A stretch of DNA of 63,471 nucleotides, the filler included, from Dugesia japonica (taxonomy: Eukaryota), in NCBI GenBank assembly GCA_001938525.1. It is 6 parts of 6 records of this genome, joined end to end, with 100 filler letters (N's around TTAATTAATTAA, not from the genome) between each part and the next. Parts side by side here need not be neighbours in the genome. Positions count along the whole stretch, not along the records: positions 19,888 to 33,950 come from MQRL01581221.1; 5 more parts are not named here. One strand, written 5' to 3'. How positions within the stretch are numbered: the stretch's first letter is position 1; each line of letters opens with the position of its first letter. Under the pieces are notes generated by a model that saw only the letters and a program-made list of their open reading frames with translations, had not been told where the DNA came from and made no database searches. The position numbers and the translations under genes were made by a program. This document shows, one piece after another, positions 14,784-44,950 of the stretch.

Positions 14784-17099
14784 AATAATAAAATCCGCAT
14801 TTTGCACGATAGCAAATTTATAAATACGATTTCTTTGGCCTACGGTTTATCAGGCTTTTATACCCACTCCTGGACTGCAAACCAGAAAAGACGACAATTG
14901 GAAACCATCATCCTCTTTCATTCCCAATCGTGTGGAGCTCTCATAAGACTTCCTTAGCAACTCGTCACCTTTATTTATCCAGTATTATTCAAAAAAACTT
15001 TACTTTACGGTTATTATCTTTATCTTTACTTATCTTTAAGGTTATTAAATATTATTTATTAAATTTAAAAATGATTTCTCTTTAATAAAAATTATTAAAG
15101 AAATACGATTACTTAATATTTTCGACGAATTTACAGATTGCTTAAATTAAATTTAATGCAATCGGACTAAGACAACAGAACAATGGAATAAAAATAGCAT
15201 ATGAACAGAAGACAATTGGGTCATCAAGCTCCCGTGTATATTGGTCACTACTCTAACTCATTTTATTCGCGAATACCATCATTACAATATTTGCATTTCC
15301 CTTTTACTTTAACTCGTTCGTTGAAACTCATTTTCTTTTATTTCATTTTCTCAAAATTATTTCATCGAAAAACTCATCTTTATTTCGACTGCTTAGATTT
15401 ATCTCATTTAAAAACCCATTTTTTATTTCGTTTTTCATGTTGATCTAGCTCAACTTCATATTGTTTTCAGGCTTTCAGATCAATTTAATATCATTTTTAT
15501 TCGGGTTATAAACTGTTTATTTTCATCTCTTTCTTTTAAATTGATCTCATTTACATTTAAATTTGTATCTCATTTAACATTTCCGTCTCTGTTTTTCAAA
15601 TTAATCTCATCAACAATTTTATCCTCGGGAGCGCGACTGTCCAATCTCTAAGGGTATACTCGGATCAACATAATTGTTATTTCAAATTATTATTAAGTAA
15701 CAATATAAAAATTGACTTTTTCAAATATCTTAGGTTTCTCCATAGGTTGAAATTGTGACAGTAATAAATGATAATTAAATTTTGACCGTGACGAAAATTT
15801 TTTAACTTAGTTGCAAAATGGTTTTTTAAAATTAAATGTAAAAAATTGTTTTTTTAAAATGTGTGTTTATTTTTCTGGTGCATGCGTTCTTATTTTGTTT
15901 TTTGCTACTACGACAATAAGACTGCTCATTAGCCAACCAATCATCATCGGGTATTTTAGAATCCGGACGTCTGGTTGGATGACACCCTACCATTACTTGG
16001 TGTGCACCTCTATTCTCTTTCCGGCTTTCTCATTTTTGAACACACAAACTCGTCAGTGTTTGTCACCTCATATGATCTCTGGCTAGTTTTAGTTTATTGC
16101 TATGATAAGTCTTGGTCTGACTTCAAGTGACCAACTTATTTTGTTTCTTATTTCGAATTTCATTGACATCAAGCAGATAAAGCACTGGTAACTAGACCAG
16201 ACTAATTATTAAATAATAATATCAAACGCTAATTAGCGTTATTATTTTTAGGTGAGTTTGCCACCATGTTTGTTGGGTTGTGAAAACTCATCGAATCATT
16301 AACATCAGAATTAAACTCCATAAATTTATTAATATAAAAAACTATAACATCATTATTTGGTTAATCAAACAAATTAAAATCCATGCTCCAATTGGGAATT
16401 TATTTCTAATAAATTTTAAATTTTAAATTAAAACTTTATTTAAAATACTTTGAAAATTTAAGCAAATAATTATCGGTTATCGAAATTTTAATTAAAAAAA
16501 CTTTCACAAAATTTTTAAACAAAGTATCATTTGCTACTAAAATATTTAATTTTTACTTTTAAAAATTTTTAAACTATATAAATATTTTTAAATACAAAAA
16601 TATTTGCATTAATCTTCAACTACACATAATTTTCTTAATTTTTTCGTAATAATTTATTTTATTTAAATTTCTTAATTAATTTGTGACTTACAATTTATCA
16701 AATAAGAGATTTTTAAAAAAAAATAATTCCTAATCAAAGCACAAAAATTTCGACTCGCTTTAAAACAACAATTATAATAAAGAAAAACGGGTCGTAGAGA
16801 CTCTTCTAATATATTAATAAAGTGGTTTATATTATTTCTTTAAACAAAATTTATTTTCAGCCTCCAAATTAGAGTTCTCTACGCCCAATTTTCATTTTTC
16901 TGCATTCTTACAATAATTCCATGATATTTATAATAATAATAATTACATAATAATGATAATTATTATAATATTTTTTATCATTTTTTCAACAGATTTCTTT
17001 TATTATTATTTCTCTTTCGTAACTTCCGCAATTTGTCGTTTTTTTCTTTCTTTTCTGTAATAAAACCATTTTAATTGTTTATTATTTTCTATGGGCTGC

Positions 17100-17400
17100 T
17101 GTGTTCTAGCCCTAGCATTTTGTTGGTTTTTTATCTGGGCAAACTCGACTTATATGTCCTTTTTTATGACAAGTTTAACATTCTACTACTTGTTTTGTTG
17201 GATAATTCGCTTTAGTACATCTGATCTAATGGCATGGCTAACATTTAATATTTTGTTTTTCCTTTATTTGATCTGCAATCCTACTCACTGTATGATTTAC
17301 AGGTTTCTGATAATTTCGACTAGTAACTCTCGCGTAACTTCTAACTGCATCAACTTGATCTATGTTTTTCTCTACTCGATCTAATCATATCGATGTTATT
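17100..17400 (-). pseudogene. Retrotransposon gag zinc-knuckle remnant
   Basis: Manual translation ...KC*PCH...EC*TCHKKGHISRVCPD (CCHC). Confidence 0.55.
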
Positions 17401-18767
17401 TTAATTTCTTCTATATTCTGTTGTTTCCGTAAAGTCATTTCTTCTTCAGCTTTTTGTTATCTGATTATGATAATTTATTTTCGAAATAAGAACAATTAAC
17501 TTCACACATTTTTATTACAAAAACACGATGGAAATATATTATAAACTTTTTTTAATTATAATTTATTTTGTTCATATACAAATTAATAACTAAATTTTAA
17601 GAACCATTTTAAAATCTTCGGCAAATAAAAACAATGCCCATTGTAAAATATATTAGTTTGGTTTAAAAATTTAAGAATAATAATAAATATAATAATAATA
17701 GTAATAATAATAATAAAAATAATAATAATAATGAACAATATTTTATTATTTCATAATAAAATATTTGTATTATTATTTTCCATTACTCCTTGAACCCATA
17801 AAGCATGCCAATAAAAGTTCTCGCGACGGATCTCTCCGTCACATGTTCATCAAATAACGAATAGGTCATGGAATTGAAGATAAAATTGGTGTGTTATGAT
17901 AATTTATTATTTCTCGTTGTCTACTAGCTGTCACATTAATCACTTCGATATTCATATGCAGCAGTTCTGTGATAATCATTCAGTTGGCCTGTTTGACGAT
18001 ATCGGTGAACAACATTGGCAGACTTAACATTCTTAGAAGTTATGCATGTGATTTATGCTTCAACTCCATGCCATATTCTTGTAATAACAATATTCAGTGT
18101 TAAAATTCGTGATTTGCTTAACTCTATTTTTTACAAATAAATTATTTCATTATAAGAATGAAAATATTTAATGAAGATTTTAATAGAATAATTATATTTC
18201 GTTGAGATCGACTACATATCATCTTACTTGGTCAACTGACAGTTTCATGTAACAATTATTTCTTGTATTTGGTCTAATTAGTTGGACTGGGATTTCATTG
18301 GACAATTTTTCAATAACAAATTTTCCCGTCGTACTTTTTTTTAAGAGGAAATATTTTTGGAGTTACATAATTATTTAACATGTAACAGGTTAGCAGGTTT
18401 TGTAAAAATTAATTTAATTATTATGAAGATCTCGATCCAGTTCATTGTTGATCTGAGTAATTTAGATCTATTTTATGAAAAGAATTTACATCATACACAG
18501 ACTCACTCGTTCATCTTGAATCTACAAGTTATTTGTATTTTGATTTTGAATTGTTTGCTCATATTCTCATAGGATTTTGATTTAAAGAAATTGTTTGATT
18601 GAAATACTTCACAAGATTCTCCTGTGTTCAAAAAGCAATTTGAAACTAGTACGGAAGCTCTAGTCAAAAGACTCTTTTCTCGTATGTTGGTCGAACCTTA
18701 ATATTTCAATTTGATATGTCTACCTTTGATTTATAGTTTATTTGTTTATACTCATCAATATTTTAAA

Positions 18768-18998
18768 ATGAGTAAGTTATTTGAACAAAGAATTTGTATT
18801 ACATTTTATGTAAAAAATTAAATTAATATTACAGAAACGCTTAAAATGATATAGAAAGCATGCGGTGATCAATCACTATCAAGAAAAATTGTATTCAATT
18901 AACTTGTCTTGCAAAAGAGCTTCGTAAATCAATACAAGATGCCCATCGTTCTGATCATTTATCAGCATTAATAATTGAAGAAAATGTCAAATCAAAGA
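18768..18998 (+). pseudogene. Mariner transposase N-terminal HTH fragment
   Basis: MSKLFEQRICITFYVKN...ETLKMI*KACGDQSLSRKIVF...DAHRS...EENVK, truncated at AGTAG 18999. Confidence 0.7.
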
Positions 18999-19370
18999 AG
19001 TAGATAGTTACTGACACATAACACCAGCCACCGTTGCCGACAAAGTGGTATTAAATTTTGGTGTTGGTTTTAGTGTTGAATTTAGTATTGACATTTTGAT
19101 TGGTCGATAAATTAGGGTAGAACTGGTTTTGGTTTACAGATTTTATTGATCAAAAATATTGGTGGGAAAGTAGATAGATAAGAGGACACCAGAACAAAGT
19201 AGGTCGAAGGGGGGTCTGCCGTTGCCATGGCAACCAATGTAGGTCAAGGTCGTTGCAATGGCAATCGCCTTAGAAACAGTATCGAGGTTACCATGGCAAC
19301 TGTCCTTAGCAACGGAAACTAGGTCAATGTCGTTTCTAAAAAGTAGGTCAAGGTCATTGATTACCATAAA
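18999..19370 (+). mobile_element. Putative Polinton terminal region with clustered X-box and AGGTCA motifs
   Basis: Starts AGTAGATAG; GTTGCCATGGCAAC (19221) and GTTACCATGGCAAC (19287); repeated TAGGTCA(AGGTCA). Confidence 0.45.
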
Positions 19371-21777
19371 TTGTTTTGAACTTTAATTAATTTCAATTTA
19401 AAGAGATTTCACTGCTTCACAGGAGTTCTCGAGACTCCGTCAATGACAAATCTCAAATTTTAAAGCGAAAAACTTGTTACCCCTCATAGATAAAACTGAG
19501 AAGAAGAACAGTTCTTACACCTTCTATTATAGCTAGACAGCTATAACAGATTAATTATTTTTACAATTGAAGATGATTAGATATATTTGTAAATTCTTTG
19601 ACTAAATATACATACTTGCATGAAAAAACGATTACCACTGAAAATAAATTTTTTTTTCTCTAATGTTATCAAGTTCAATGAAAAATTTAATTTTTCCATA
19701 ATTTCATTGAAACAAAAATAAAATTTCTCCGAGAAACTTTAGAAACTTGATTGTCACATTGAATGTTAAAAATAAAATATTCTATACNNNNNNNNNNNNN
19801 NNNNNNNNNNNNNNNNNNNNNNNNNNNNNNNTTAATTAATTAANNNNNNNNNNNNNNNNNNNNNNNNNNNNNNNNNNNNNNNNNNNNACTTTTGGTCCAG
19901 TCATCTTGCCTTGTCTGAATCAGGTGATAAGAGTTACAAAATAAACAACAAAAACTCTTATACGTCGGAAGTCAGACAAGGACTTTGCCTAGAAACTGAC
20001 GGAGTCATCAGAGGTCACATGAGATGACGGTCGAAATTAATCAAAATCTGAAAAGTCCAAGTTCGTGTGCAGAAACACTGAGGTATGCACACCNNNNNNN
20101 NNNNNNNNNNNNNNNNNNNNNNNNNNNNNNNNNNNNNNNNNNNNNNNNTATTCGCAGGCTAATCGAGAGCCAAACAATCTCTCTATCCAAGGTGGAATAA
20201 AACGGGTTCACACGAAGAAATCAGACAGTGTTAAAAACAAAATTTTCTTTGTTAATTTTGTCATAGCTAACATATTTTACGAATCAACTCAGTAAATTAA
20301 ATTTGTTAAAATCTACTACTTGTGGTTGAATATTATTTTTCTCAACATTGGATCCTTTGATTCCGGAACGAATAAAAGTAAATTCTATTATTCATTAATA
20401 TTTTTTATCCCATTTTAAAATTTATGTGTATGAGTGCCATTCCCCCAAACTTGAGTTTCCCAGGATGGATCCAGCTCCTGATGCATTCCGACCATTGGTT
20501 AATGTACAAGTGTTATGAGTATCTACACATTCGCANGCAGCCTGAGTTGAAAAACATGAGAGTCATCATGAGGGAAAATATGAAAAATGAATCTGGTAGA
20601 ATTACCCTCAAATTATGAGTTGGCAAGGATATGGAGTTTCATCGATCTCTGGAGCAACCGTTTGATTATTTGATTTTAAAAAATGTGTTGAGTTTTGATT
20701 CATGGGAAGTTATCNNNNNNNNNNNNNNNNNNNNNNNNNNNNNNNNNNNNNNNNNNNNNNNNNNAAAAACATGAGAGTCATCATGAGGGAAAATATGAAA
20801 AATGAATCTGGTAGAATTACCCTCAAATTATGAGTTGGGAAGGATCGGGAGTTTGATCGATCTCTGGAGCAACCGTTTGATTATTTGATTTTAAAAAACG
20901 TGTTGAGTTTTGATTCATGGGAAGTTATCGGGTCTATTTGCGTTTTTGTCGCTAAGCATTTTGTTTTTATTTATTTTTGTTATTGTCAAGCTACTTAATC
21001 TTTATGAAATTATTGTAACAAAGTAATTTTTAGTTGATTTGCCGATTTATTCATTGTTTATTTGATAATTAAGCATATTTTCTCTAATTATTCCTTATTG
21101 CATTTTAATTAAATTATTCCACATTTAAAGGGTATGAATGAATAATGCTAAAGTTAATCGCCGTTAGACGGTTGTAAGATTTGATGAAGCAAGTAATGAT
21201 AATAATAATATAATAATTTGCTTATAATTGTATTCATTTTGTTTATTCCATTTAGGTAATAATCTGAAATCATGTAAAGTATTATTTTAAAGAATAATTA
21301 TTTAACCTTAAATTTCAATAATTAATCTGACTAAATTGTTTTACATTAGTCGTTAATAATGAATACGAAAAATCCATTCTAGCATAAGGCGATGATGGGA
21401 ACGAGAAAAGATGCGTGATTAAATTCTCATCTTTCCTGGTTCGCGTCATATAACATTGGAAGCGAAATGTTAGGCCGTAGGCCGAAGAAAATTATTCTAN
21501 NNNNNNNNNNNNNNNNNNNNNNNNNNNNNNNNNNNNNNNNNNNNNNNNNTCGTTAATAATGAATACGAAAAATCCATTCTAGCATAAGCAGATGACGGGA
21601 ACGAGAAAAGATGCGTGATTAAAATCTTATCTTTCCTGGTTCGTGTCATATAACATTGGAAGCGAAATGTTAGGCCGTAGGCCGAAGAAAATTATTCTAA
21701 AATTAAAACACGATGATTGTGTCAACTTAATGTTCGTGTCATTTCACTACTTTATTTAATTGTTTCTGATTTCTTAG

Positions 21778-22185
21778 ATGGCTAAAAGTAGGCGAAATCT
21801 CAAAAGACCTCGTTATATCTGGCCCTACATTGATGAGGTAGGCCGATATTATATTGAGAGGGACGAAGTGCGGACAATGATAAGAACGGAGACAGAGAGG
21901 CATCATCATGAAATCAAGAACCTCGAAGCGAACAACGAGTCGGCCCGGTTACAACTGGCGGTCAAAAGTAATAGGATAAAAGCGTTAAAGTGCCAATTGG
22001 AACGAACCCGAGCGTCACTACAGAACCAGATAAAGCAACTCCAGGAGGAGCTATCTGGCCCTTCGCCGAAGATCGTCCAGGTTTTTTCGCTTAGTAGTGC
22101 TGCAGATGCGAACGACGAGATTGAGGAACGAGAAATAATCCGGAACCTGATGGATCAGGGCAATCCGAATGTACATAAAATTTAG
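21778..22185 (+). CDS. Coiled-coil protein of unknown function (probable retroelement accessory exon)
   Basis: 135-aa intact, GC-richer ORF preceded by a ttcttag acceptor-like site. Confidence 0.45.
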   Translation: MAKSRRNLKRPRYIWPYIDEVGRYYIERDEVRTMIRTETERHHHEIKNLEANNESARLQLAVKSNRIKALKCQLERTRASLQNQIKQLQEELSGPSPKIVQVFSLSSAADANDEIEEREIIRNLMDQGNPNVHKI

Positions 22186-22732
22186 TCATAATAAAAGTTT
22201 TCAGTGTAATTTTTGAATGGCAAAGTTCGCATTAATTGTCTTGATGATCATATGACTTAGAAAGTGTGATTTGTAAGTCACAAGTAAAGTAAAGATACTG
22301 TAAAGGCAGTAGTGTTGTCATCGAGATTCATCGTTAAAAAAATTTTTTAATTATTCTTATTTGTTTGTGTTGCAATATTTGAGCGTTCTAATTTTGTTTT
22401 CGAGATCAAAACTTGAAAATTACTGATAAATGTTGTTTTCAAGAAGTAATATGATTATGTGTGGGGTAGATGATGATAACCAGGAGAAAGATATTAAATC
22501 ATGTATTTAGGTGATTCTACTATGCGTGTGTTCTTTCTTAAATTTCAGTCGAGTATAGGTTTAGCTATAATATTGGTATTATTTATCTAATTAAATCGAT
22601 TGCAGTGTCAAACATTTTCTTAATTCTCATTATAATTTAGTGGATAAAACAACGGAAAGTAAAATCAATATGAAAGATGTGCTATCAATACAGAAAAAGT
22701 GAAAGGAGGAGCGTCGGCCACAAAGGAACGAG

Positions 22733-22969
22733 TTGTTACAGCTGAAGAGTCAAATCACCAAACATAATGGCAAATATCATCAGCTTAAAGAAAAGGAGCT
22801 AGCGTTACAGCAGGCCAACCGATTAATGGCCGAGGTAATAAAAATATATGGCGACCGCGAGGCGTCGCTATTCAATAATTTGAGGTCACTGTGGCTGCTG
22901 TATCGAGATCCACCAGAAGAGTTAAAAGTGAAGGACACCACAGTAGACCTAGATGTGGATGCATCATGA
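22733..22969 (+). CDS. Short coiled-coil ORF (probable retroelement accessory exon)
   Basis: GC-richer open frame with heptad-like pattern; no recognised family. Confidence 0.35.
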   Translation: MLQLKSQITKHNGKYHQLKEKELALQQANRLMAEVIKIYGDREASLFNNLRSLWLLYRDPPEELKVKDTTVDLDVDAS

Positions 22970-25900
22970 ATAAATAGTTATCGTTGTCATATTACTTGGT
23001 ATTCTATTTCTTATCGGTTATGTATGACCAATTTTAATTCTGTCATTATCATAAATAATTACTGAGCAAATAAGCGAGATGTTAGTTTGAATTCATGAAA
23101 GCAATGATAAAATGCGATACCGCAAAGTCGCGCTGAACCTGAGGAAAAGAGGAGCATGTAACAGAGGTGACACAAATGCTTGTGGTTTTTAGGTATGCCC
23201 CTAGACGACCTATCTGTTTACTGAATGAACACTGAAAGTGTAGAGATTTAATANNNNNNNNNNNNNNNNNNNNNNNNNNNNNNNNNNNNNNNNNNNNNNN
23301 NNNNNNNNNNNNNNNNNNNNNNNNNNNNNNNNNNNNNNNNNNNNNNNNNNNNNNNNNNNNNNNNNNNNNNNNNNNNNNNNNNNNNNNNNNNNNNNNNNNN
23401 NNNNNNNNNNNNNNNNNNNNNNNNNNNNNNNNNNNNNATAATGAAACGAGTAGAACCAATTTTATAAATGAATGAAAATGCAAAGTGCGAATTAAATTCG
23501 GAAAACGGTTAACAAATGAATGTTGATGAATTAATGAAATTCGACAATCAAATAAAGGCCGAGGAAAGATCTAATTGTGATATGCATATTTGTACAATCG
23601 GAAATGATAATACGCTGAAATGTTAGAATGGAAAATGATTAATTTTGCCAAAAGTTATTGCTGTAATTGAATAGCATTGACTATTAAAATTATGTTTCAA
23701 ATATGCGGATAAATTTCAGAGATTATGCAGTTAATTTGACGATGAGGATGGCACTCGGATCTTGTAAGATTTATAATTTGATAATATTCTTCATTTGCGC
23801 ATTAATATTTTATTAGTGTTCTTTTAACTGCGCATTAAATTTGATAATTTAATGCCCGATATTTATTGATTATTATTGTTAAGTTATAATCATTACCAGA
23901 ACTACTATAATTGATTTTCAGTAAAGAATTTGGTAAATAAATTGATTAATATTTTAGTAAGAGGCTTTTAGTAAATTTTGTAGTAATATTTCGTAAAATA
24001 GTTGAGTAAATTCTATTTAAAGAGTTTTGTTAGTAAATTTTGTGTAATATTTGAATAACAATTTTAGTGCTTGAATATTTTATTTAGATATTGTTATTAT
24101 TAGATATTTTATTTTTTAATGCTTTTTATAAGATAGATAATTTAATTTTAATTCGTATCAAAACGGTATAAATTAAAGTATTAAAATAAAATCAAAAATG
24201 GAAATGTTTTGATATTTTATTTTTTTATTATAGATAATTTAAAATCGACTCGTAAATATTAATTGTTAAAGTAAAATTAAAGTACAGTAGAAGTATTAAG
24301 TTAGTTTAGTACCTAATATTAATTAATACAGACATGCAGAGGAGTAGGAACATAGCACGCATTCAAATAAACACTGAGGAAAACAATCGATAATACATAC
24401 GAGAACTGCACGCAGAGAAGAGGAACATAACACGATACAAGCAAAACATAACTAGATCTTTACATACGAGTAGTGAAAATTTTAGAGAGGTAATAAAAGA
24501 TTGAGAGACGAATTTGTGCGAGGACGCCGATTTATTAAAAGAGGTGCGTCCGAATTGTTGTATCACGATTTGGCACGGACAGTGAGTCATTGTGTGTGTC
24601 TTTTGGTGATGCTGCAAAGAGGATGATGAACGTCAGCACACATAGTGAGATGTGCAAGCTGTGGAATGACAGGGAGTTCGAAGAGTTAGAATATTTTTCA
24701 TTCGGCAGCGAGAACATTTTACATCAAATATCAGTTAATTTTAACATAAAATGAGCTAAGGATAATAATGCCTGGTGGGTGAGAGTGGGTCATGGGAACT
24801 TGCACACACCGAGTATTGGGATCGACTTATTTTAAACATCGAATGAGTAAATGATAAATAAATGTGTAGAAAGAGGAATGTACCAAGTGATTTGGAAGTG
24901 AAGTGTGTGTGAGAGTGAAATCAGGGCTCACACGCACTGCATCTCCGGATTATGTGATATGCAGCATCAAGCAAATATATAAATAATGAATAAAATGATT
25001 ATTATTAACTAAACTACTGATGAGGAAATGACGATGGAGTGGTTTCGAATGAGCATAGTGGTGCGATTGGAAGGAGAATCTCGCAACTCTTCTCATTTGC
25101 AGTGCCTCAATTCAAGTATCACATATTGAATGAATCGACTAGTAAACAATGATCAGAGCGTGCAATTTGAGTAAAACATCAAAACCAAACTGCTGCCACT
25201 GGTCATGAAATATCTGTTGAGTAATCAGCATGGATTGTAGATAAAAGCGGAGAAAATTAGGTTGACACACCGGTCAGTTGTCTACAAAGATAACAGTAGT
25301 AGAAACTGGATGTGAGTCAACAGAAATTTGGCGTTTATGCATCAAAAGGAGCAGCATTAAAAGTGTATTAATGGTGAGGCAAGTATTAAATAAATTTTAA
25401 CATACATTTAGCAGCAGAAAATCGTAACGAGAAGCGAGTTTGGGGAGAGGGTAAATCAATAACCAGTAATAATATAGTAATAGAGGCGCAATTGAAATTG
25501 ATATGCAGCAATGAATGAGTAAATAAAAGGTAACGAGGCGAGTTATAAATTCTAAATGAGTAGAGATATGGTTAAATGTAAATGAAGCAGGTCGGAATAA
25601 AGTAGAATTGATGATGACGATAACTCAAAGGTAAATGAGCAACAAAGCGAGAACTAATGAGATTANNNNNNNNNNNNNNNNNNNNNNNNNNNNNNNNNNN
25701 NNNNNNNNNNNNNNNNNNNNNNNNNNNNNNNNNNNNNNNNNNNNNNNNNNNNNNNNNNNNNNNNNNNNNNNNNNNNNNNNNNNNNNNNNNNNNNNNNNNN
25801 NNNNNNNNNNNNNNNNNNNNNNNNNNNNNNNNNNNNNNNNNNNNNNNNNNNNNNNNNNNNNNNNNNNNNNNNNNNNNNNNNNNNNNNNNNNNNNNNNNNN

Positions 25901-26470
25901 NNNNNNNNNNNTTATTGATGAATAATGAATAATTTGAATAGTAATGATATTGTACCGATAATGGAGTAACAATAACTGAAAGTAATGAGATTAAAAGATG
26001 ATGGTTAAATGATTTTGAGACGTGAGATTGATGAGAAACTGATATAATTTACGGAGAAGAGGAGGCGACAAATGAGCTGAAAAAATTAAATGTGGTTAAT
26101 CAATGAAATCTATTTCGAGGAGAAATTGCTATGCCTTATCAAGAAGTGCAGGAGGGGTATCAGACAGTCAACACAGGGAGGCCACCCAGGTGAGTGGTAA
26201 CCGAGAACTTGATTGACAAAGGAATGGAGATGGAGACGAGGTGTAACAGTGGCGTTCTATGGTTACGGAGTCATATGAAACAATAATCAAGTATTTTGAA
26301 TATTATTGGAATTAAATGTTCAAGAGTGAAGTGATATTAGCTGTGATTAAATTGAGGGTTTCATGTGAGATAAGTAATTTTGAATTTAGAATTGAATAGG
26401 GTTGGAGATTTTATTGTGGTGATGTGGAGAGAGACAATTTCCAGCGTAACCATAGATATGTGATATATTA

Positions 26471-26870
26471 AATGTAGCAGAAGTTGGTATCTACAAATTG
26501 GAGGATCTGGAGAAGGCCAGAGAGCANNTGTTATTTCCGGTCAAACGAATTCAAATTTTATTTAATATTGTGTATGTTGCTGGAGGGGCATTTACGTCAG
26601 AGGGCAGACCGAATTATGAATTATTATTATCACCAGATCATTTTTAACAAGCAACAGCAAATGTAATGAAAAAAACGTTTTCGGACAAGAAATGGCAGGA
26701 TTATTGGGAATAATCTTCATACTGCAAATAATCAAAGTATTACTGACTCAATTATTAGCGTGTTTCGATTTATACAAAAAGGAAAGGAAAATGTCTTGGA
26801 CAATGATTATGGGATTATTCCCAGCGTGGGCTAAATTAGTAGTACTAAATAGTCATTCAAATGAATTGCA
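26471..26870 (+). pseudogene. env: Chuvirus-like glycoprotein (env) C-terminal ectodomain and TM region
   Basis: Manual translation NVAEVGIYKLEDLEKARExxLFPVKRIQILFNIV...FGQEMAGLLGIIFILQIIKVLL...SWTMIMGLFPAWAKLVVL parallels the chuvirus G pattern LAxSGIYxxxDxxxLRxxIMFP...FGxxxAGxxGIxxIxRxxK...W. Confidence 0.7.
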
Positions 26871-29800
26871 TAATACAAGGAGCTTATTGCGATATCTGAG
26901 TCAAGTGGGGGGAAGCGACAGGCAGATAGTTGAACAAATTCGTGCAATATGTGATGACATGAGAAAGCTAAAGGGAAGGAAGACATCTTATTTTGATGTA
27001 TTTAAACCATGGAAACGACAAGATAGTAGTAGTGATGATAGCGATGATGATTCTTATGGCAAACGACAAAGACGACGTGTGGTACCGAGTTACGGATCTA
27101 GAAAGCACCAGAAAGTATTCCAAGTGAATTATCAGAATCAACGATCAGATGAGAATATCGCGAAAGATAATATTTATGAGCAAGAGGGTAGAAGTGAAAT
27201 TGATTGCTATGGTTACCCACAAATGGGAGTACAAAAGTGTGAGAATAACAAACAATCTAGTAAATATCAAAGTGACGACGAAAGACAATCTAGAAAAGGA
27301 GAGAAATTAAACGGATATCGGAGTGAAGAGGAACGACAGTACAGATCCGGGAATAGGAAAGTACGGAGGAACGGCAAAGCATGGAAACAGGTATGACAAT
27401 CAAGTTGTGGAGCAGGGAATCGAGAATTAATTTACTACCCAAATGATGAATTGCAACGAATACGCAGACAACACAACTAAATTTTGCGGAATAACGGATA
27501 ACGAAATTATTGGAACCGCGCCACCCGAGGATACAAATTTTAGTATAATATCGGATAGTGAAGAGATAAAAGACAAGGATACCCGAAGCCTTGCGCCAAT
27601 GACAATGCCAGGTGGTAGAGTGATACTAAAAAAGTTGATAATTAACGGTAGAAAAATAGATTGTATGATCGATACCGGAGCGTGGAGATCAATAATCGAT
27701 GAACGAGTGTTTTATGAGGTAGATAAAGCTAGGATGCGTAAAGAAGGACTCCAAATGCTAACGGTAACCGGACAAGCCGTAAATACAGGGGGGAAGTGGA
27801 TTGTAGAATGCAATGTGAAAATGTGCAATTTATGCATCCTATGCAAGTAATGCAGAATTTAGTTTTTGATTGTATTATGGGGTTGGATATGATAGGAAGA
27901 CTATTTCCTGGAGGAAAATTGGATCTGAATTTGTGTCAACAACCAAATGGAAGTAAATTAACAAGGACTCAGACAAAATGTGTACATTGCGATAAACGAG
28001 GTCATCTATCAAGCCAATGTTGGAAAGTTGGAAATAACCCAACCTGGTGTATAAATTGTCAACGACCAAACCATACAACTAAAGAGTGTAGCAGAAAAGG
28101 CAAACATTGTGTAACTTGTGGTAAAAAGGGGCATTCCAAAATTGTATGTGAGAAATTGAATCGATGTTATGTGTGTGGTTTAATGGGGCATTTATCAAGA
28201 GATTGTTGGAGACGAGTTGAACTCAAACCAGAAATTGGAAATACAGTTAAAATTTCTCGAACAAAGAGGAAGGATTATGTGTGTTATAACTATTTGGAGG
28301 CTGGGAATCGAATACTAATAGATCTAAAAATTGATGGGAGGATATTATCAGCGTTGTTCGATACCGGAGCCACAATATCAGTATTAAATTATAATCTAAT
28401 ATCACCGACCAAGTGGGTATATATTACACAGAATAAATCAGAAATATTTTTAGCGGATGGATGGCAACGAGAAGTGTATGGCAAATTGCGATGTGAAGTT
28501 GAATATCAGGGAAGAACAGTATCGCATGAAATGACAGTAATGAACATGAGTGAGGATTGTATATTGGGAACGGATTTAATTCCCGTATTGATGAGAAATG
28601 TAGTTCTGGATATGACAACATTGAAAATATAAAATTCTAGGGAGAATTTATATGTGGAAGATAACGAAGTATATACAAACAAAAGGTTGGTGATACCAAG
28701 GAGAAGTCAAGTATTTTGTATTGCAAAAACGAGAGCAAACTGTAAAGAGGATATGATTTTTGAACCGCACGAAGGGTTCTCGAAGCGATATAAATTGCCA
28801 GCAGCGAGAGAAATAGTAAACGTGTCTGACGAAGGAAAAGTGCCAGTCAACGTACTGAATATGATAGAAGAAGATATTACTATTTATCCAAATTCCAAAA
28901 TCGGAGTATTAACCCCACTGGAAGACGAAGAGGCGGAAATGAATAATGTGTTAAATAATGATTATGAGAAATTAAAAGGAGATTGGTGAAGCGAATGTAA
29001 ATCGAGTTACCAACAAACGCAGAAGAAGTAGATCGGACGTTTAAAGTGGAATCAACCATTCTATCAGCAGCAGAAAAGGCTAAATTATTACAACTATTGG
29101 ATGAATTCAGAGATATTTTTGCGTGGACAGACAATGAATTAGGTGCGTGCGCGGTGACCAAGCACTCAATAGTGGGTAAAAAGGATGGTTCGATAAGAAT
29201 GTGCGTGGATTACAGATAAGTGAATTTGATGACAGAAAAAGTCTCTTTTCCAATGCTAGACATTCAGTTCTTATTAGATGGTTTATCTGGCTCAAAATTA
29301 TTTTCATCGATTGATCTCNGTCAAGCTTATTATCAAGTAGAGTTAAGTGAAAAGTCAAGGGATTTCTCAGCTTTTAGTACAAAGGAAGGTCAATTCAGAT
29401 TTAACCGAATGTCTTTTGGATTAGCTACAATACCTTCACTTTTCAAAAGTTAATTCACGAGTTATTGTATATCTGGACGATATTCTGGTGTACTGAAAAA
29501 CTTTGAAGGATCACGAAAAAATGTTAGAGACAGTCTTTTACAGGATCAGAAATTCCGTATTAAGAATAATCCCGGAGAAATGTAAGTTTTATCAGAAAGA
29601 AGTGTTATTCTTGGGACATACAGTTAGTGCAACTGGTATACATACTAATGAAGTTAAGATTCAGGAGAATAAGAATGCTATAGTTCCAGAATGTTCTTCA
29701 AAACTCAATTCGTTTCTCGGACTCACAAACTGCTACAAGTTTCCATAAAATATTATGCAAAGATAGCAGCTCCTGTATATGAAGCAACTTCAGGTTGCAA

Positions 29801-30270
29801 CAAACCGTTAGTTTGGACAGAAGCATACCAGAACAGTTTCAAAGCATTATGTAGTGCTCCAGTATTAGAATATCTTAGGAAAGATATGATGTTCATTTTA
29901 GAAACTGAAGCTAGTTTTGGGGCTATCAGTGCAGTCCTTAATCAATTCAAAGAGGAAAAGGAAGTGGTAATTGCATATAGATCCAGACATTTGACTGCTC
30001 ATGAAAAAGGATATTGTGACAAGGAAAGAACTATTAGCTATACACGTAGTTGCACAACAATTCTGATAATATATGTAAGGAAAGAGATTTCTAGTAAAAG
30101 CAGATCACAAAGCGATGGTATTTCTAAACAACACAAAGAAACAAATCATTCCATAAATTTCAGATGTGGATGGTGAATTTGAGAGAGTATGATTTTGGCG
30201 AAGAACACAACAATGTCAATGGGTTGTCGAGGCTAAAGGAAAGTTTATGTTCACAATGTAGTATGAAAGG
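26692..30270 (+). mobile_element. pol: Degenerate Gypsy-type polyprotein: TM/linker, aspartic protease 1, four CCHC knuckles, aspartic protease 2, RT, RNase H
   Basis: MIDTGA (~27665), CVHCDKRGHLSSQC/CINCQRPNHTTKEC/CVTCGKKGHSKIVC/CYVCGLMGHLSRDC, LFDTGA (~28355)...ILGTD, KKDGSIRMCVDY, YLDDILV, ETEASFGAISAVL, NGLSR; several frameshifts. Confidence 0.88.
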
Positions 30271-30662: not shown

Positions 30663-32300
30663 TTTGTTACAACAGTCCACTGATAGTTTATGTGCTGTTA
30701 GGAAGTCTGCCCTAATAATTGCCTGTTGGACTTCAGTAATTTTGAACGTCCACTTGTAAACTTTATTATTGATGTTGATTTTTATTTGTTTATCACCGTA
30801 TGTATTCATTGTCAAGCTGCAATTAGTTTTTTATTTGTTCTGGGGCTGTTTTTGTAGAGGTAATGGGGTAGTAATGATATAATTGACCCAGTGTCAATCG
30901 AAAAATTTGTGTTATTTGTGTGCACCATAAAAGTATGATTATTGTCACCAAATGTGGGTGCTATCATTGGTGACATTTTCAGTTTCCCTGATTTGGATTT
31001 TATGTGCATCGGTTGATGCACTTGTAGGTTTTCTCAGCGAATTTGTTATGAGAATAACACAAGTTTGTGTTTTTATTTTCGTATTTGTTGACAGATTGTG
31101 TGTGGTCCCGATTTCTTGAATGGTATCGATTTTGTGAGAAAGCACTAGAATGTGTCCTACTATTATAGTTTCTAGGATGGCTGTCACTACGTTCTCTTGT
31201 TCGACAATTACTTATTTCATTTAATTCTTCCCTGATCTTTTTGTTTTCTTTATATAAATCGTCTATTTTTGACATCAAGGATTTTATTTGCATCTCCATG
31301 CCATTGCTATTTAGATAACTTTGATCTTCAGTTCCATTCCTTTGATAATTATTTTGTTTTCTTGTGCCGAAGATTATTGGGACTATTTCCTCAGTAGATG
31401 GATAGTAGCGCACGTAGCCATCACACATTCAGTAGACCCCCCCGCCGATTAGTGATGTAATTAGTGCGATTATCTGAAATTTGATAGTTAATCTATGATG
31501 TAATTACATNNNNNNNNNNNNNNNNNATCAATTAAATTTATTATGCAATTTTTAATTGGAATTATTTTTTACAATAATTTTAATCCATCAATTAAATTTA
31601 TGATGCAATTTTTAATTGGTAATATTTTTTACAATGATTTTNNNNNNNNNNNNNNNNNNNNNNNNNNNNNNNNNNNNNNNNNNNNNNNNNNACTGATAGT
31701 TTATGTGCTGTTAGGAAGTCTGCCCTAATAATTGCCTGTTGGACTTCAGTAATTTTGAACGTCCAATTGTAAACTTTATTATTGATGTTGATTTTTATTT
31801 TTTTATCACCGTATGTATTTATTGTCAAGCTGCAATTAGTTTTCGAGAATTTCTTATTTCATTTAATTCTTCCCTGATCTTTTTGTTTTCTTTTAATAAA
31901 TCGTCTATTTTTGACATCAAGGATTTTATTTGCATCTCCATGCCATTGCTATTTAGATAACTTTGATCTTCAGTTCCGTTCCTTTGATAATTATTTTGTT
32001 TTCTTGTGCCGAAGATTATTGGGACTATTTCCTCGTTTATCTTGTTAGCAATTTCTGCCAGCGTTTCTAAATTTTATATGTTGCGGCCTGCGAAGATTCT
32101 TCTTATTTCAGGGGGCATCACTCGCATGAAAAACTCTTTTAATAACTCAATTGAGCCAGAGTTCGTAATATTTGGTTGGATATATTTCAGATTTTGTTTT
32201 AATTGTAGAAAATCGCTTGGTTTGCTATTTCCAACTTGAGTATTTTTAAGGCTAGCTTCTAGCATTTGCCGTCTATTAATTTTNTTTTTGTTGATTAAAA
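30663..32300 (-). mobile_element. gag: Gypsy (CsRn1/Kabuki-like) gag-protease remnants, two partial copies
   Basis: GNSKPSDFL, LLKEFFMRVMPPEIR, CYSHNKFAEKTYKCINRC (CHCC-type knuckle), IDTGSIISLLP, TYG...WTF...AIIRADFL. Confidence 0.75.
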
Positions 32301-34915: not shown

Positions 34916-35039
34916 GATGTAAAATAGACTACTCTTAAATTTTACATTCGACATTTAAGAGAAATAATAAAAAATATAATGTAAAATAAAAAATCGACCT
35001 ACTTTTAGTATGTCTATGATTAAATTAATTCTTTAGAAA

Positions 35040-38000
35040 ATGAATAGCTTAATAATAATATGTGAAAACTGTAGAAAGGTGTTTAAAAATCTGGCGGGTA
35101 AAACGGGACACGTTAGATCTAGAATTTGTTATAGAAGTGAAATAACATTTCGATGTGAAAGATGTAATCGAAGATTTAGAAATGAATATGGTTTACAAGA
35201 AAATTTAAATTCAACACGTTGTGGTAACTTAAATAATGTACCATTAAAATGTGAGATTTGTAATAAAACATTTACAAGACAAAATCTTGCCAGAGCACAT
35301 TTCAATTCTGAAAAACATAAACAAATGGTTAATAGAGCTTTATTTGAAGAATTACCAGGTGAAGAAGCAATTGATTATGATCCAGAAATTAGAGATCTTT
35401 TAAGACAATACAAAGATTATGAAATTGAATATTTTAAAGAAAGTAAAGTTTCAATGAGAAAAAATGTTAGTCAATTATACACAAATCCAATTAGAGATAT
35501 TAACATGTTTCAAAATGAAGTTAAAGGAATTATTACTAAATATTTTAAATATGGAAAAAAGATTATAATAAGTATAGAAGTAAAATGTAGATATACAAAA
35601 GAAATAAATAATGAAAATAATGAAAGAGATTTTATTTCTTATTCAAACAATAAAAGATTTACAATTCTAACTAAAATTGAAAATCGTGTTAATGAAATAT
35701 TTAATGAACTACAAAAATATATTGAAGATGAAGATCGTGAAGGCTCAGAATGGTCAATGTCACATATTGTAGATTACAAAATAGATTTAAGTAAATACCA
35801 ATTATTAATTGGTGCAACATATTGCAAATTACCATTTCAAAAACCAGGTGTAATCAACATAAAAAATAAAGATGATAAATGTTATCTTTATTCAATCTTA
35901 GCACATAAATATATAGTTGATAATCCAACACGTGTAGAAAAATATATTCCATATTTAACAGAATTAAAATATAATGGTTTTAAATTTCCTATGAATATTG
36001 ATGATATAAAAAACTTTGAGAAATTAAATACTTTAGAAATAAATGTGTTTGGTGTAAATGCTAATAAAAAACTTGAACCATTACATGTTTCACATCACAC
36101 AATAAATCCACAACCCGAAGAAAATAAATGTAATTTGTTAGTGTATAATGAGCATTTTATTTTATGTAGAGATCTAACTGTATTTTTTACATCACCAAAT
36201 AGAAACACAAATTATCCATGCATACGATGTATGAATTGTTATTACAGTGAAGAATTATTAATTAAACATCAAGAATGTTGTATTAGACCTAAAGCAAATA
36301 ACATCGTATTTCAACATGCCGATTATTATTATTTTTATAAACATTATCAGAAAAACAAAATTCCATTTATACTTCTTGGAGATTTCGAAGCTTACACAAA
36401 TTCAGATAAAAAACAAAAAGCATTATCATTAGGTGTTTATCTCAAAAGTGATTATCAAGATTTATTTCTAAGTTATTATTATGAATTTTCAGGAGAAAAT
36501 ATTTATGATGACTTTTTTTAATTTTTAGAAGAAGTTAATGAAGAATTAGAAGATATTAAAGAAAACAAATTAATAAAAGAAGTTATTGGTGAAGTTCCAG
36601 ATTTTACACCGAACACAAAATGTAGATATTGTGAAAATAAAATATGTGGAACTCCAGTTGAAGATCATAACCATTTCACAGGAGAAATTCGAGGGTGGTC
36701 ATGTAATCATTATAATGTAAATAATAAAAGTATTAAAAATTTATTTATACCATTTTATTTTCATAATGCATCAGGTTATGATAATCATTTATTTTTTAGA
36801 GAGTTATTAACAAACTTTCCATCGAAAATAAAAAGAATAATTCCACATACATCAGACAATTACATTTCATTTCAATATGAAAATATTAAATTTTTAGATT
36901 CAGCAAGATTACTTCCAAACACACCAATAGAATCAATGGGGAAATTATTAACACAATCTAATTATTATCCAATTTTAAATTCATTTAATTTAAGACCAAA
37001 GAAAGCAAGTTTTCCATATAAATATGTAAAAGGTAACAGTATAACAGAAGTTGAACAATTATTAAAATCTAACAGAATTCCAATAAAAGAAGATTTCTTT
37101 AATACATTAAATCAAAAAGAAATATCAGATGAAGATTATCAAATATTTCTAAATGACTTATGTGGAGCATATGAAAACATGTGGGAATACATGATGCATT
37201 ACATGAAACTTGATATTTTAATCCTTGCAGATTTCTTAGAAAACTTTCGTGATTCAATATTATATTGTTTAAGCAATATTATTAAATTAGATCTATGTTA
37301 TTCATATTCAGCACCAGGATATACATGGGAAACTGGAATGTTAAATGCTAATGTAAAATTAAAATATGCGAAAGCCGAAACTTATGATATTTTCTTAAAG
37401 ATTGAAGAAGGAATTAGAGGTGGATATTCTGGTGTGTTAGGTGAAAGACAAGTGTTTAGTCATGAAAATTCACAAGAAAATTTCAATGAGAACATCTCCA
37501 TGGTTTAAAAAACATGTTCACAAATTAATAGCTTTAAGAAAAGAAGCTAAAAGAAACAATAATGTTTTTGGAGATTACATTTATAAATTAATGTTAAATG
37601 CATTCTATGGAAAAACTTTAGAAAATATCAGAAATAGATGTAAGATAGAAATTGTAGATAATGACAAAGATTATCAAAAGTTCGCATCTAAAATAAATTT
37701 TAAATCAAGTAAAATCTTCACGACAAATGATAACAATGAAGCTAATGTTGCAGCAATGCATATGGTAAAAGGAAAATTAAAATATAACAAATTTCCATAT
37801 ATAGGTTTCACAATTCTTCAACATGCAAAACAAGTAATGTATAATTTTATATATGAAAAAATGCAACCTTTAATTGGACAAGATAATTATAAAATTCATT
37901 ACAGTGACACGGACTGTATCTTTACAGAAATAAATGGTAGAGATAACTTAACAAAGTTAGAAAGTTTATTAGGAAATGATTTATTTCAGATGAAAGATAA

Positions 38001-38385
38001 AATGCCTAATTCTGAAATAATTCAAGGTAATTTTATAAAAGCAAAATCTTATGAGTATAGTTATCAGGATAAAGGACAGATGAAATTTGATTCAAGAAAT
38101 AAAGGTGTAAAGAAAAATAATAAATTTTTGATGAAAGATTTTGATGAAGTATTAAAAAATCCTAAACAAATAATTTATGGAACTAATTTTTCATTAACAT
38201 CTAATTGTCATGAAATTGAAATTGTAGAGCAAAAGAAAATAGCATTAATGGGATATGATGATAAAAGAATCATAGAAGATAATGGTGTTACAACTTGGCC
38301 ACATGGAAATAAATATTATTGTGAAACATGTGAAGATTGGCATTTAAGATTAGACATGATAAATAAAACATTAAATTGTTTATAA
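35040..38385 (+). pseudogene. polB: Protein-primed PolB with N-terminal zinc fingers and endonuclease VII-like insert; one frameshift plus one internal deletion
   Basis: EGSEWS, NIKNKDDKCY, GDFEAY (ExoI), DHNHFTGEIRG, FHNASGYD (ExoII), FLDS, YMKLDIL (ExoIII), IRGGYS, KLMLNAFYGK (motif B), YSDTDC (motif C), DDKR..TWPHG; frameshift in T-run at ~36520. Confidence 0.95.
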
Positions 38386-38389
38386 TAAA

Positions 38390-38910
38390 AATGACGAACG
38401 AAGTGAGCAATCCAACAAGCGGCAGCAAAGCGAGTACAACGAGTGTAACTGAAGAAGAATTAGAAAAGATAGTAAATTCAAAGAAATGTAAATCTGTAAA
38501 GATTGACGGTAAAAATTATTACATTAGTAAAAAAGTAAAGGATGAACTAAAAAAGAAAGAGCGCAAAGGTGGTTTTGCATTTCTAGCTGTGTTCTCGGTG
38601 TGTTTTCCGGAACAGCCGGAATTGCATCTGGAATTGCAAGTACAGTAGCGAGTTCCAAAAAAGCAATTAAACATAAAAAAGAAATTGAGCAAATGGAAGG
38701 CGATGGTATTTATTTGAATCCGTGGTAAGGTTCTGCACTTCATAAATATTTAAAAATATTGATCCTAAATTTAAAGGTGTAACAAAAAAGTTTAAAAAAG
38801 GAATTCGTATACGTCACAAAAGAAATGGAATATATTTAGCTCCATATCAAAGAGGAAATGGAATAAATGAAAGTGAAGAAGATGAAACAGACGAAGATGA
38901 TGAATATTAA
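38390..38910 (+). pseudogene. pX-like core/membrane-active precursor protein
   Basis: With frameshifts: ERKGGFAFLA..LGVFSGTAGIASGIASTVASSKK...MEGDGIYLNPW...NGIYLAPYQRGNGI. Confidence 0.65.
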
Positions 38911-38936
38911 ATTTCTCATATAAGAAATCGCGAAGC

Positions 38937-39830
38937 ATGAATACAAAACAAGTTAATGAAAGAATTAAAGAATTAACAAGTCAAATTGAAGGTGAAGAAA
39001 AATATAATGATTTTTTCTGTAATAAGATTCTTGAATCAAGAGAATTACAAAATAAATTATCAATGTTACAACAACCAACAATTAGTGCAATTGAAAAAAT
39101 TTCAGAGAAACCAGAAACATTAGAAACGAGAGATTTAACAAAATTCTTTTTAAATGAAAAAGTAATTCCATTTATTCCAGAATACTCAATTGATAATATT
39201 GATGCCACCGGAAGGTTAAGTCAATCAATAATTCCTAAATTTTCTACATTTAATGTTAGTGGTATTAATAAGATAAAAAGTTTTATGGAAATAACTTTAA
39301 AAGAAAATAAAATTTATTTATTTGAAGAAGAAGGAAATAAAAATTTCTTATTCAAATAATAAGTTATACCATACACCGATATAATATTTAGAATAATTTT
39401 AAGAAATCTAGATGAAACAGAAACACCCGAAGATGTTGAGGCTTATTTAAATAAATTTATTAGTCCTATTCCAACAAATAGTGATTACTCTAATATGTTA
39501 AAAAGAAAATTTAGAAGGGTAGATATTACCGAAAAACCTAAAAGAAAAAGGAGAAGATTAGATTAGCCCATATTAGATGAGCTCAAATTAAATAAACCTG
39601 TACCATTAAATGAAACAGAAGGAGACGCTCTCAATCGTTTAAGTTTATTTGAAAAGTTAACATTATTAATTTCAGCAGAAAAATCTGGACACAATAATGT
39701 AGATGAAGAAATTAAAAAGGCATGTAAAAAATTAAAGATGGGTTCAATATCTAATAAGATTTATAAAAAATATAAAAAGAAATTTTTAAAACATAGATTT
39801 TACACAAAGCATTTTACATCTAAAGTTTAT
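38937..39830 (+). pseudogene. Conserved adintovirus/Polinton protein of unknown function
   Basis: ORF to 39359, continuing after a frameshift to LFEKLTLLISAEKSGHNNVDEEI, resembling the LxLLxAxxxAGNN C-terminal motif of this gene class. Confidence 0.55.
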
Positions 39831-39839
39831 TTATAAAAA

Positions 39840-40517
39840 ATGTCACATCAATTCTTAGAAGTTGGAAAAGAACAAGATTTAATATTAGATTTAAAATTTC
39901 CTTTAGAATTAGATTCAGAATATGAACTTGGATTAATTTGTTTTTCATGTTACAATATTATTTTTAACATAACAAATTTAAATAATAAATTTACTGTTGA
40001 CACTAAAGAATATAAAATTGAACCTGGATCAAATGAAGTAAAAGTAATTTCAGATAAATTAAAAAAATATGAAATAGAAATTTTGGCCGATACAGCAACT
40101 GCAAAATGTGAAATGAAAACAAAAAAGATATTAAGTTTTAATAATAAATCTTTCTTCCATACAATTTTAGGTTTCAATGAAAAAACTTATCAACCGGGAG
40201 ATTATTTATCAGAAAATAAAATTGACATTTCAAATATTAACACAATAAATATAACTTGTAATATTGTTAAAAGTAATTATGTAAAATCTGATATAGGTAA
40301 CACTGAACAAATTAATCTTTTATATTCATTTCCAATTAACACAGTTGGTTTAGGATATAAAATTCTTGAAAGACCAACATCAACAATTTATTCTNAAATT
40401 AATACAAACTACATTTCAAGATTAAAATTTAATGTTGTAGATGAACATTTTAAAACAATAGATTTTAACCAAGAGACAGTTACAATTTTAGTCCATTTAC
40501 ATAAATATCGACTTTAA
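39840..40517 (+). CDS. Minor capsid protein (penton, single jelly-roll)
   Basis: PLEL..YELGL..YN.IFNIT..NNKF, PGS.E, ILGF, INITCNIV, YKILERP, IDFNQETVTILVHL; intact 225 aa. Confidence 0.88.
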   Translation: MSHQFLEVGKEQDLILDLKFPLELDSEYELGLICFSCYNIIFNITNLNNKFTVDTKEYKIEPGSNEVKVISDKLKKYEIEILADTATAKCEMKTKKILSFNNKSFFHTILGFNEKTYQPGDYLSENKIDISNINTINITCNIVKSNYVKSDIGNTEQINLLYSFPINTVGLGYKILERPTSTIYSXINTNYISRLKFNVVDEHFKTIDFNQETVTILVHLHKYRL

Positions 40518-40544
40518 GAAATAGCAAAGCTGGCCTACGGACAA

Positions 40545-41860: not shown

Positions 41861-41868
41861 GTTTATTA

Positions 41869-42975: not shown

Positions 42976-42978
42976 GAA

Positions 42979-43573: not shown

Positions 43574-43635
43574 AATTTGCCTGGTAGCATGCTACCAGCT
43601 TAGGACTAAAATTTTTATTTAAGAAATGGCAAAGC

Positions 43636-44777: not shown

Positions 44778-44877
44778 NNNNNNNNNNNNNNNNNNNNNNN
44801 NNNNNNNNNNNNNNNNNNNNNTTAATTAATTAANNNNNNNNNNNNNNNNNNNNNNNNNNNNNNNNNNNNNNNNNNNN

Positions 44878-44950
44878 TTATGTTTGTTTTGAAAGTGTTT
44901 GAAGACTTCACTTTCTTTCTGTTTGAGATGTTCTTTAATTCTTGTACGGA
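44878..44950 (-). pseudogene. GIY-YIG endonuclease fragment (Penelope-like) abutting PolB
   Basis: RTRIKEHLKQKESEVFKHFQNKH. Confidence 0.5.

What the first reader, a model, noticed from the sequence alone, without database searches (positions are those of the whole stretch)
26471..29170. Chuvirus-like fusion glycoprotein placed upstream of, and running into, a Gypsy-type protease/nucleocapsid/pol polyprotein
Seen: a frame at 26471 reads AEVGIYKLEDLEKARE..LFPVKR, then FGQEMAGLLGIIFILQIIKVLL...SWTMIMGLFPAWAKLVVL. The same ORF (26692..27396) continues past the TM region into a charged linker, followed on the same strand by protease, knuckles and the RT N-terminus. Known: this pattern matches the C-terminus of Chuviridae glycoproteins (class III, gB-like), which BEL/Pao elements have captured in insects. 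env normally lies 3' of pol as a separate ORF. Inference: an env-first enveloped Gypsy-like retroelement with one giant polyprotein, possibly related to the giant planarian Burro elements. This is the best candidate here for an undescribed system.
Basis: partly seen in the sequence, partly recalled or inferred. Interest (0 to 1): 0.85.

Follow-up and report, generated by a model that had tools for sequence, protein, structure and literature searches.

The report
Two-protease envelope retrotransposon, broken copy
This is a broken, likely patched-together copy of a virus-like jumping gene that carries a remnant of a membrane-fusion gene ahead of two protease genes with four zinc knuckles between them; the fusion gene inside one giant protein is already known from flatworm elements, but the doubled protease, which likely helps cut the protein free of the membrane, turned up in none of our paper searches.

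Summary
26462-26990 is the C-terminal quarter of a chuvirus-type fusion glycoprotein (Pfam PF24664 across a frameshift; 36-52% identical to intact relatives). It runs on the same strand into protease 1, four CCHC knuckles, protease 2, a dUTPase-like region and the start of RT. Searches found 17 long natural proteins with this Env; 14 hold Env, protease, RT and integrase in one ORF. Their order is Gag-Env-Pol, not env-first: 13 of 17 have knuckles before Env, none after. 13 of 17 have two or more proteases, with C2H2 fingers or ankyrins between them in 5. So the window's knuckles likely fill that slot. Env inside a Gypsy polyprotein is in print for planarian Burro and flatworm GAG-ENV-POL errantiviruses. 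The window copy is dead: no Gag, most of Env and integrase missing. Its RT/RNase H from 29169 belongs to another Gypsy lineage (AU p=5e-5). The family is very abundant in two DNA runs. New here: multiple catalytic-looking proteases, and a knuckle array between two of them. Verdict: new variant of a known kind, moderate interest.

The parts
24200..26461 (.). High-copy sequence upstream, unassigned (possibly LTR/leader of this family or another repeat); holds a 246-N gap
   Evidence: Summed contig depth rises from 58-119 at 23926-24168 to 2,000-45,000 (edge approximate). No Pfam, Env or Gag remains found; stops in all + frames.
26462..26680 (+). Env remnant, piece 1 (end of ectodomain); holds NN and a stop; frameshift to piece 2
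   Evidence: PF24664 472-541 E 4.5e-4; own profile E 1.4e-18; 35-52% identity to relatives
26677..26990 (+). Env remnant, piece 2: TM helix (~26701-26757) and cytosolic tail
   Evidence: PF24664 546-605 E 8e-4; own profile E 5.3e-17; P0005 43% over 93 aa; hydropathy
26991..27478 (+). Charged linker, in frame with Env up to the stop at 27394-27396; other copies depart from this one at 27478
   Evidence: ORF 26620-27396; divergent contigs span 27141-27469, three of four listed without gaps; 12 contigs have loose ends behind 27478
27620..27906 (+). Retropepsin 1 (DTG at 27671-27679; IMGLD motif), split by a frameshift near 27790
   Evidence: gag-asp_proteas E 7.7e-5; both halves match relatives' proteases; motifs
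27979..28206 (+). Four CCHC zinc knuckles, in one ORF with the C-half of protease 1 and with protease 2
   Evidence: Four CX2CX4HX4C matches; ORF 27742-28632; divergent contigs span 27829-28077 and 27902-28142
28306..28593 (+). Retropepsin 2 (DTG at 28360-28368; ILGTD motif)
   Evidence: gag-asp_proteas E 9.8e-9, RVP E 2.6e-8; with the dUTPase-like region it groups with the Env clade (FastTree 0.978)
28680..28930 (+). dUTPase-like region (assigned by position and homology); separated from protease 2 by a stop that the laid contigs do not share
   Evidence: No Pfam hit itself; 28% over 206 aa to the PR-to-RT region of P0153; the like region of P0129 hits Pfam dUTPase at E 0.005
29001..29168 (+). 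N-terminal helices of RT, ending at a junction where about 50 residues of RT are missing
   Evidence: 47% over 36 aa to P0006; translation
29169..30180 (+). RT and RNase H of a different Ty3/Gypsy lineage, broken; no integrase follows
   Evidence: RVT_1, RT_RNaseH; groups with the window's two other Gypsy RTs (SH-aLRT 97), outside the Env clade, AU p=5e-5; depth falls here

Best explanation
This is a dead, likely chimeric copy of an abundant Burro-like Ty3/Gypsy element whose intact form would make one Gag-Env-Pol polyprotein, with a chuvirus-type fusion protein followed by two proteases that flank four zinc knuckles. Shown: the domains and their order in the window; the one-ORF Gag-Env-protease(s)-dUTPase-RT-RNase H-integrase order in natural relatives; catalytic motifs in the extra proteases; the foreign RT beyond 29169. 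Inferred: the polyprotein threads the ER membrane (Gag in the cytosol, internal signal, Env in the lumen, TM helix, Pol back in the cytosol), so Pol is born tethered to the Env tail. Retropepsins work as dimers (established knowledge). A second protease in the same chain would likely let the chain cut Pol free of the membrane without waiting for capsid assembly, and the knuckles released between the two would likely bind the element's RNA. The stretch between the proteases is a variable slot (C2H2 fingers, ankyrins, here CCHC knuckles). This copy lost Gag, three quarters of Env and integrase, and was joined at ~29170 to RT/RNase H of another Gypsy family by deletion, template switch or mis-assembly.
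For: Env identity; an AlphaFold model of relative P0043 (pLDDT 55) has chuvirus-type glycoproteins as top Foldseek hits, best E 2.4e-13 but TM-scores 0.1. One ORF in nature: 14 of 17 long Env proteins hold Env, protease, RT, RNase H and integrase; short P0003 and P0005 also join Env tail to protease. Gag first: CCHC before Env in 13 of 17, after Env in 0 of 17; Retrotrans_gag in P0165, Ty3_capsid and weak Bcl-2 in P0156, ubiquitin/SUMO-like and ankyrins in P0157, the same extras as Burro. Two or more proteases after Env in 13 of 17; C2H2 between them in 4, ankyrins in 1; D-T/S-G kept in 46 of 47 relatives' protease domains and both of the window's. Topology: a hydrophobic stretch at the Env end in 15 of 17, just before Env in 8 of 17 at the threshold used. 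Family, not chance neighbours: summed contig depth 12,900-69,600 (X1) and 6,100-20,700 (X4) in every bin of 26113-29271 against 58 and 119 in the flank; divergent contigs join protease 1 to the knuckles; protease 2-dUTPase groups with the Env clade. Chimera; depth drops to 5,800 and 4,100 after 29271.
Against: No contig spans Env to protease 1, and 12 contigs leave the window's sequence at 27478, so that link is not shown for other copies of this family. No intact member of this family was found; the nearest relatives are only 35-52% identical in Env. None of the 17 relatives has CCHC knuckles between proteases. The knuckles are spaced like Gag knuckles, and the best overall hit P0002 has Gag knuckles close before a half protease, so they may be a true nucleocapsid. 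The protease tree is poorly resolved and the window's two proteases join on long branches. All three window RTs are decayed and AT-rich, which could pull them together in the tree. The Gag profile was weak: it did not list the window's own four knuckles among its best 15 hits. Nothing about cleavage or pairing was tested.
Confidence: 0.7

Rival explanations
1. The family is truly Env-first: Env, then a capsid domain lost from this copy at 27478, then protease 1 inserted inside Gag, nucleocapsid knuckles, protease 2 and Pol.
For: No Gag remains upstream; 24200-26460 looks non-coding. Other copies depart at 27478. Knuckles directly before protease 2 is the usual Gag-Pol order. ENV-GAG-POL exists in two mites (PMC13524379).
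Against: 13 of 17 relatives have knuckles before Env, none after. The slot between proteases holds non-Gag cargo in 5 relatives. No capsid trace in the linker ORFs.
Confidence: 0.13
2. Env-linker and protease 1-knuckles-protease 2 come from two different elements joined at 27478 in this copy only (nesting plus deletion, or mis-assembly).
For: Loose ends at 27478; no spanning contig. The copy has another junction at 29170, and the assembly is gappy with duplications beside gaps.
Against: Both sides have similar very high depth in two runs, lie on one strand in the order seen in relatives, and protease 2-dUTPase belongs with the Env clade.
Confidence: 0.1
3. The whole stretch including the RT is one recombinant family: an Env-protease module captured by a different RT lineage.
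For: All parts are on one strand in Pol order; the break falls inside RT, where a template switch could occur.
Against: Depth falls about four-fold and many low-depth contigs replace few high-depth ones past 29250; about 50 RT residues are missing at the joint; contigs and RNA reads of the RT part have other sequence before ~29175.
Confidence: 0.07

Closest known systems
Burro (GYPSM1) giant Gypsy elements of dugesiid planarians (PMC6431247, section 7 read whole)
   Same: Env with hits to mononegavirus glycoproteins in frame between Gag and protease; dUTPase-like region between protease and RT; the relatives found here carry the same extras (SUMO-like, Bcl-2-like, ankyrin).
   Different: That text names one protease and puts the CCHC knuckles in the N-terminal Gag; its figure could not be seen. 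Here two proteases flank four knuckles. BIR, MATH, size, LTRs and host could not be checked for the window's family.
GAG-ENV-POL errantiviruses with HSV/gB-type Env, Platyhelminthes C1a (PMC13524379; abstract, sections 5 part 1, 14, 22, passages, rows of supplements 1 and 2 seen)
   Same: Ty3/Gypsy, gB-type Env before pol. Six S. mediterranea elements are listed. By eye their Env N-terminal parts share the YQExD..REC motif region with the relatives found here (YQE[S/A]D in 13 of 17); the bryozoan and nematode rows seen do not.
   Different: The paper treats GAG, ENV and POL as ORFs; 'fused', 'in-frame' and 'single ORF' occur 0 times and 'protease' once in the main text. The window lacks the Env part given in the supplement, so the link is through relatives.
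BEL/Pao elements with chuvirus glycoprotein in mosquitoes (PMC7642597, search listing only; cited in PMC13524379)
   Same: Same Env family (PF24664).
   Different: BEL/Pao, not Ty3/Gypsy; Env position 3' of pol is recalled, not checked here.

Membership tests
Ty3/Gypsy errantivirus with gB/chuvirus-type Env | Env of the PF24664 family | tested here: met
   C-terminal quarter only
Ty3/Gypsy errantivirus with gB/chuvirus-type Env | Class III (gB-like) fold of Env | tested here: inconclusive
   Low-confidence model of relative P0043; hits chuvirus G models; the PDB list shown held only proteases. gB-likeness rests on PMC13524379.
Ty3/Gypsy errantivirus with gB/chuvirus-type Env | Ty3/Gypsy pol in the order PR-RT-RH-IN | tested here: inconclusive
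   Met in 14 relatives. In the window integrase is absent and RT/RH beyond 29169 is foreign.
GAG-ENV-POL flatworm clade / Burro-like | Env upstream of protease | tested here: met
GAG-ENV-POL flatworm clade / Burro-like | Gag upstream of Env | tested here: inconclusive
   No Gag found in this copy (weak profile); knuckles upstream in 13 of 17 relatives
GAG-ENV-POL flatworm clade / Burro-like | One uninterrupted Env-Pol ORF | tested here: inconclusive
   Broken in this copy; some breaks are not shared by other copies; met in 14 of 17 relatives
GAG-ENV-POL flatworm clade / Burro-like | dUTPase-like region between protease and RT | tested here: met
   By homology and position; no direct Pfam hit
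GAG-ENV-POL flatworm clade / Burro-like | RT inside the Env clade | tested here: not met
   RT from 29169 rejected from the clade, AU p=5e-5; read as a foreign piece, the family's own RT is unseen
Burro in the strict sense | Over 25 kb, multi-kb LTRs, BIR/Bcl-2/MATH extras | not testable with these tools
   No genome held; no LTR pair in the window
Burro in the strict sense | Planarian host | not tested
BEL/Pao with chuvirus G | BEL/Pao-type protease and RT | tested here: not met
   Pfam hits are gag-asp_proteas/RVP, RVT_1, RT_RNaseH; the Env relatives have Gypsy-type pol

The most novel reading that the evidence does not exclude
These elements are enveloped retroelements built as one membrane-crossing polyprotein that carries its own single-chain protease pair: protease 1 and protease 2 fold together, the route by which pepsin-like enzymes are thought to have arisen, to cut Pol off the Env tail. 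In this family the nucleocapsid knuckles have moved between the two proteases. Relatives add a second, Ig-like membrane protein after integrase that could be the receptor-binding partner of the fusogen.
Probability: 0.2. Interest if true: 0.75.

Novelty: new variant of a known kind. Interest (0 to 1): 0.42.

Why it matters
The headline (Env inside a Gypsy polyprotein) is in print. What is added: two to four proteases with intact catalytic motifs are the rule in this clade (13 of 17), with a swappable slot between them. Retroviral proteases normally exist once per chain and are switched on by dimerising during assembly, so a natural tandem pair would be a different way to time processing, and it can be tested with small soluble fragments. 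The relatives also give 14 natural one-ORF sequences for asking how an element sets Gag:Env:Pol ratios without frameshift or splicing.

Tried and rejected
No whole genome is held, so copies could not be read in context. Word-indexed protein searches for close relatives: 1 weak hit of 826 candidates, 0 of 207; weak evidence. Viral-contig scan: no match. PDB by sequence: nothing for the Env piece, only proteases for P0043. Atlas: Env piece scored 0.81 and 0.77 to PF24664 clusters (lead only); knuckle-protease ORF gave generic clusters. Env or Gag remains in 22000-26460: none above noise. LTR pair: none. Expression: no RNA holder listed; 371 and 41 reads laid from about a quarter of two RNA runs, 3 and 0 at 99% or better, so only relatives are seen and strand cannot be read safely. 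Earlier scan findings: none. A complex prediction of protease 1 with protease 2 was not run: it would tend to pass by likeness to solved dimers. Paper searches for multiple proteases: 'two protease domains'+'retrotransposon' 1 unrelated paper; 'second protease'+gypsy 0; 'duplicated protease' 0; these are exact-phrase searches. Grohme 2018 and Lee 2026 (Burro papers) were not held, and figures of the papers read could not be seen; they may show the second protease. Trees: RT rows needed 200 aligned positions; P0077 and P0037 were dropped as long branches (kept, same result).

Full report
1. Observation. The peptides are present. Pfam PF24664 hits two neighbouring frames in order, profile 472-541 (E 4.5e-4) and 546-605 (E 8e-4). 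Each is under the curated cut-off, but a profile of 8 natural relatives scores them at E 1.4e-18 and 5.3e-17, with the next hit in the window at E 2.8. Only profile positions 475-616 of 629 survive. Downstream on the + strand lie a charged linker, protease 1 (frameshifted), four CCHC knuckles, protease 2, a dUTPase-like region, RT with about 50 residues missing at ~29170, and RNase H to ~30180. No integrase, Gag or LTR pair was found for this copy.

2. A family, not chance neighbours. No genome is held. Contigs of two DNA runs from two studies pile on every bin of 26113-29271 at summed depth 12,900-69,600 (X1) and 6,100-20,700 (X4), against 58 and 119 in the flank at 23926-24168. This is not a copy number, but it marks an abundant repeat covering Env tail, both proteases and the knuckles alike. 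Divergent contigs span 27829-28077 and 27902-28142, joining protease 1 to the knuckles in other copies. The stop after protease 2 is not shared by the laid contigs, and some contigs differ in length at the protease 1 frameshift. Against: no listed piece spans Env to protease 1, and 12 contigs leave the window's sequence at 27478.

3. Intact relatives. A phmmer search of 1.84 billion representatives gave 554 hits, the best 150 listed; 11 of the 154 proteins then held carried Env. A search with the Env of P0153 found 16 proteins of 2,099-4,057 aa among 3,392 candidates. Of these 17, 14 hold Env, protease, dUTPase-like region, RT, RNase H and integrase in one ORF. CCHC knuckles lie before Env in 13 and after it in none. 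Two or more proteases follow Env in 13, and 8 of the 14 with integrase have a further protease behind it. Between the first two proteases sit C2H2 fingers (4 proteins) or ankyrins (1); ubiquitin/SUMO-like and weak Bcl-2 hits lie before Env. D-T/S-G is kept in 46 of 47 relatives' protease domains. Pre-dUTPase proteases cluster (2 changes against 14.1 shuffled), the extras are scattered, and the tree is weak. A low-confidence model of P0043 matches chuvirus-type glycoproteins first. Hosts of these relatives are unnamed.

4. The copy is likely chimeric. Protease 2-dUTPase groups with the Env clade (FastTree 0.978, 49 rows). RT/RNase H from 29169 is 37-42% identical to Env-clade RTs, which are 63-85% identical to P0153, and 48% to the Gypsy remnant at 12-13 kb. 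It groups with the window's other two RTs (SH-aLRT 97), and forcing it into the Env clade is rejected (AU p=5e-5; same grouping). Depth falls at the same place. Shared decay and AT bias could add to the grouping.

5. How it likely works. Inferred from hydropathy and domain order: Gag stays cytosolic, an internal signal opens Env into the ER lumen, the TM helix returns the chain to the cytosol, and Pol is made tethered to the Env tail. Retropepsins are dimers (established knowledge), so a second protease in the chain would likely allow early release of Pol. The knuckles would likely bind RNA, as a relocated or duplicated nucleocapsid or as cargo. None of this was tested. Confidence in identity and architecture is about 0.7; in intrachain pairing about 0.2-0.3.

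6. What is known. PMC6431247 (section 7 read) reports env in frame between gag and protease in Burro, with hits to mononegavirus glycoproteins and a dUTPase-like region before RT. PMC13524379 (parts read) reports GAG-ENV-POL gypsy elements with gB-type Env in flatworms, nematodes and bryozoans and ENV-GAG-POL in two mites; supplement 1 lists nine flatworm elements, six from S. mediterranea. By eye, the relatives found here share Env motifs with those six and not with the bryozoan or nematode rows seen. The window's family works like Burro and is likely of that clade; strict membership is untested. Three phrase searches found no paper on multiple proteases, but two Burro papers and all figures could not be seen.

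7. Verdict. Real and well spotted, mostly known. New variant: tandem proteases, with a CCHC array between them in this family. Interest 0.42.

Noticed in passing
Relatives P0153, P0155, P0157-P0159, P0161-P0163, P0009, P0165, P0166; P0167: Behind integrase, 11 of 14 full polyproteins have two further hydrophobic stretches enclosing 120-400 aa; P0167 has an Ig-like domain there. This looks like a second membrane protein at the end of the polyprotein.
   Followed up: partly
P0009 (HBK71150.1): A 2,627-aa Env-Pol retroelement polyprotein is filed as a hypothetical protein of a Flavobacteriaceae MAG; likely animal DNA in a bacterial bin.
   Followed up: no
window 10649-13093 (-), knuckle at 17136-17213 (-): Decayed Gypsy element (RT, RNase H, integrase) of the lineage that gave the RT at 29169; interrupted upstream by the mariner.
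   Followed up: partly
window 59176-61076 (+): Third decayed Gypsy: knuckles, protease, RT; no Env hit.
   Followed up: partly
window 13820-14635 (-): Mariner-like transposase remnant (recognised from the translation, not searched).
   Followed up: no
window 35037-44490 (+), 44826-45998 (-), 49354-50299 (+), 62166-62853: Polinton-like pieces: type B DNA polymerase with C2H2 fingers and endonuclease VII, several unnamed ORFs, an integrase-like remnant, and partial repeats of the polymerase.
   Followed up: no
window 1-375 and 4402-4767: Inverted repeat of about 370 bases, 91-96% matched, around 4 kb; may be terminal repeats of a DNA element.
   Followed up: no
window 20550-20929, 21350-21699, 30679-32034; gaps at 9078, 19788, 33951, 44778: Near-identical duplications beside N gaps and a repeated 12-base linker inside gaps: signs of a short-read scaffold.
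   Followed up: no
window 25870-26841: The few RNA reads over the Env part lie almost all with the first mate on +, which in most stranded libraries means antisense RNA; library type unknown.
   Followed up: no
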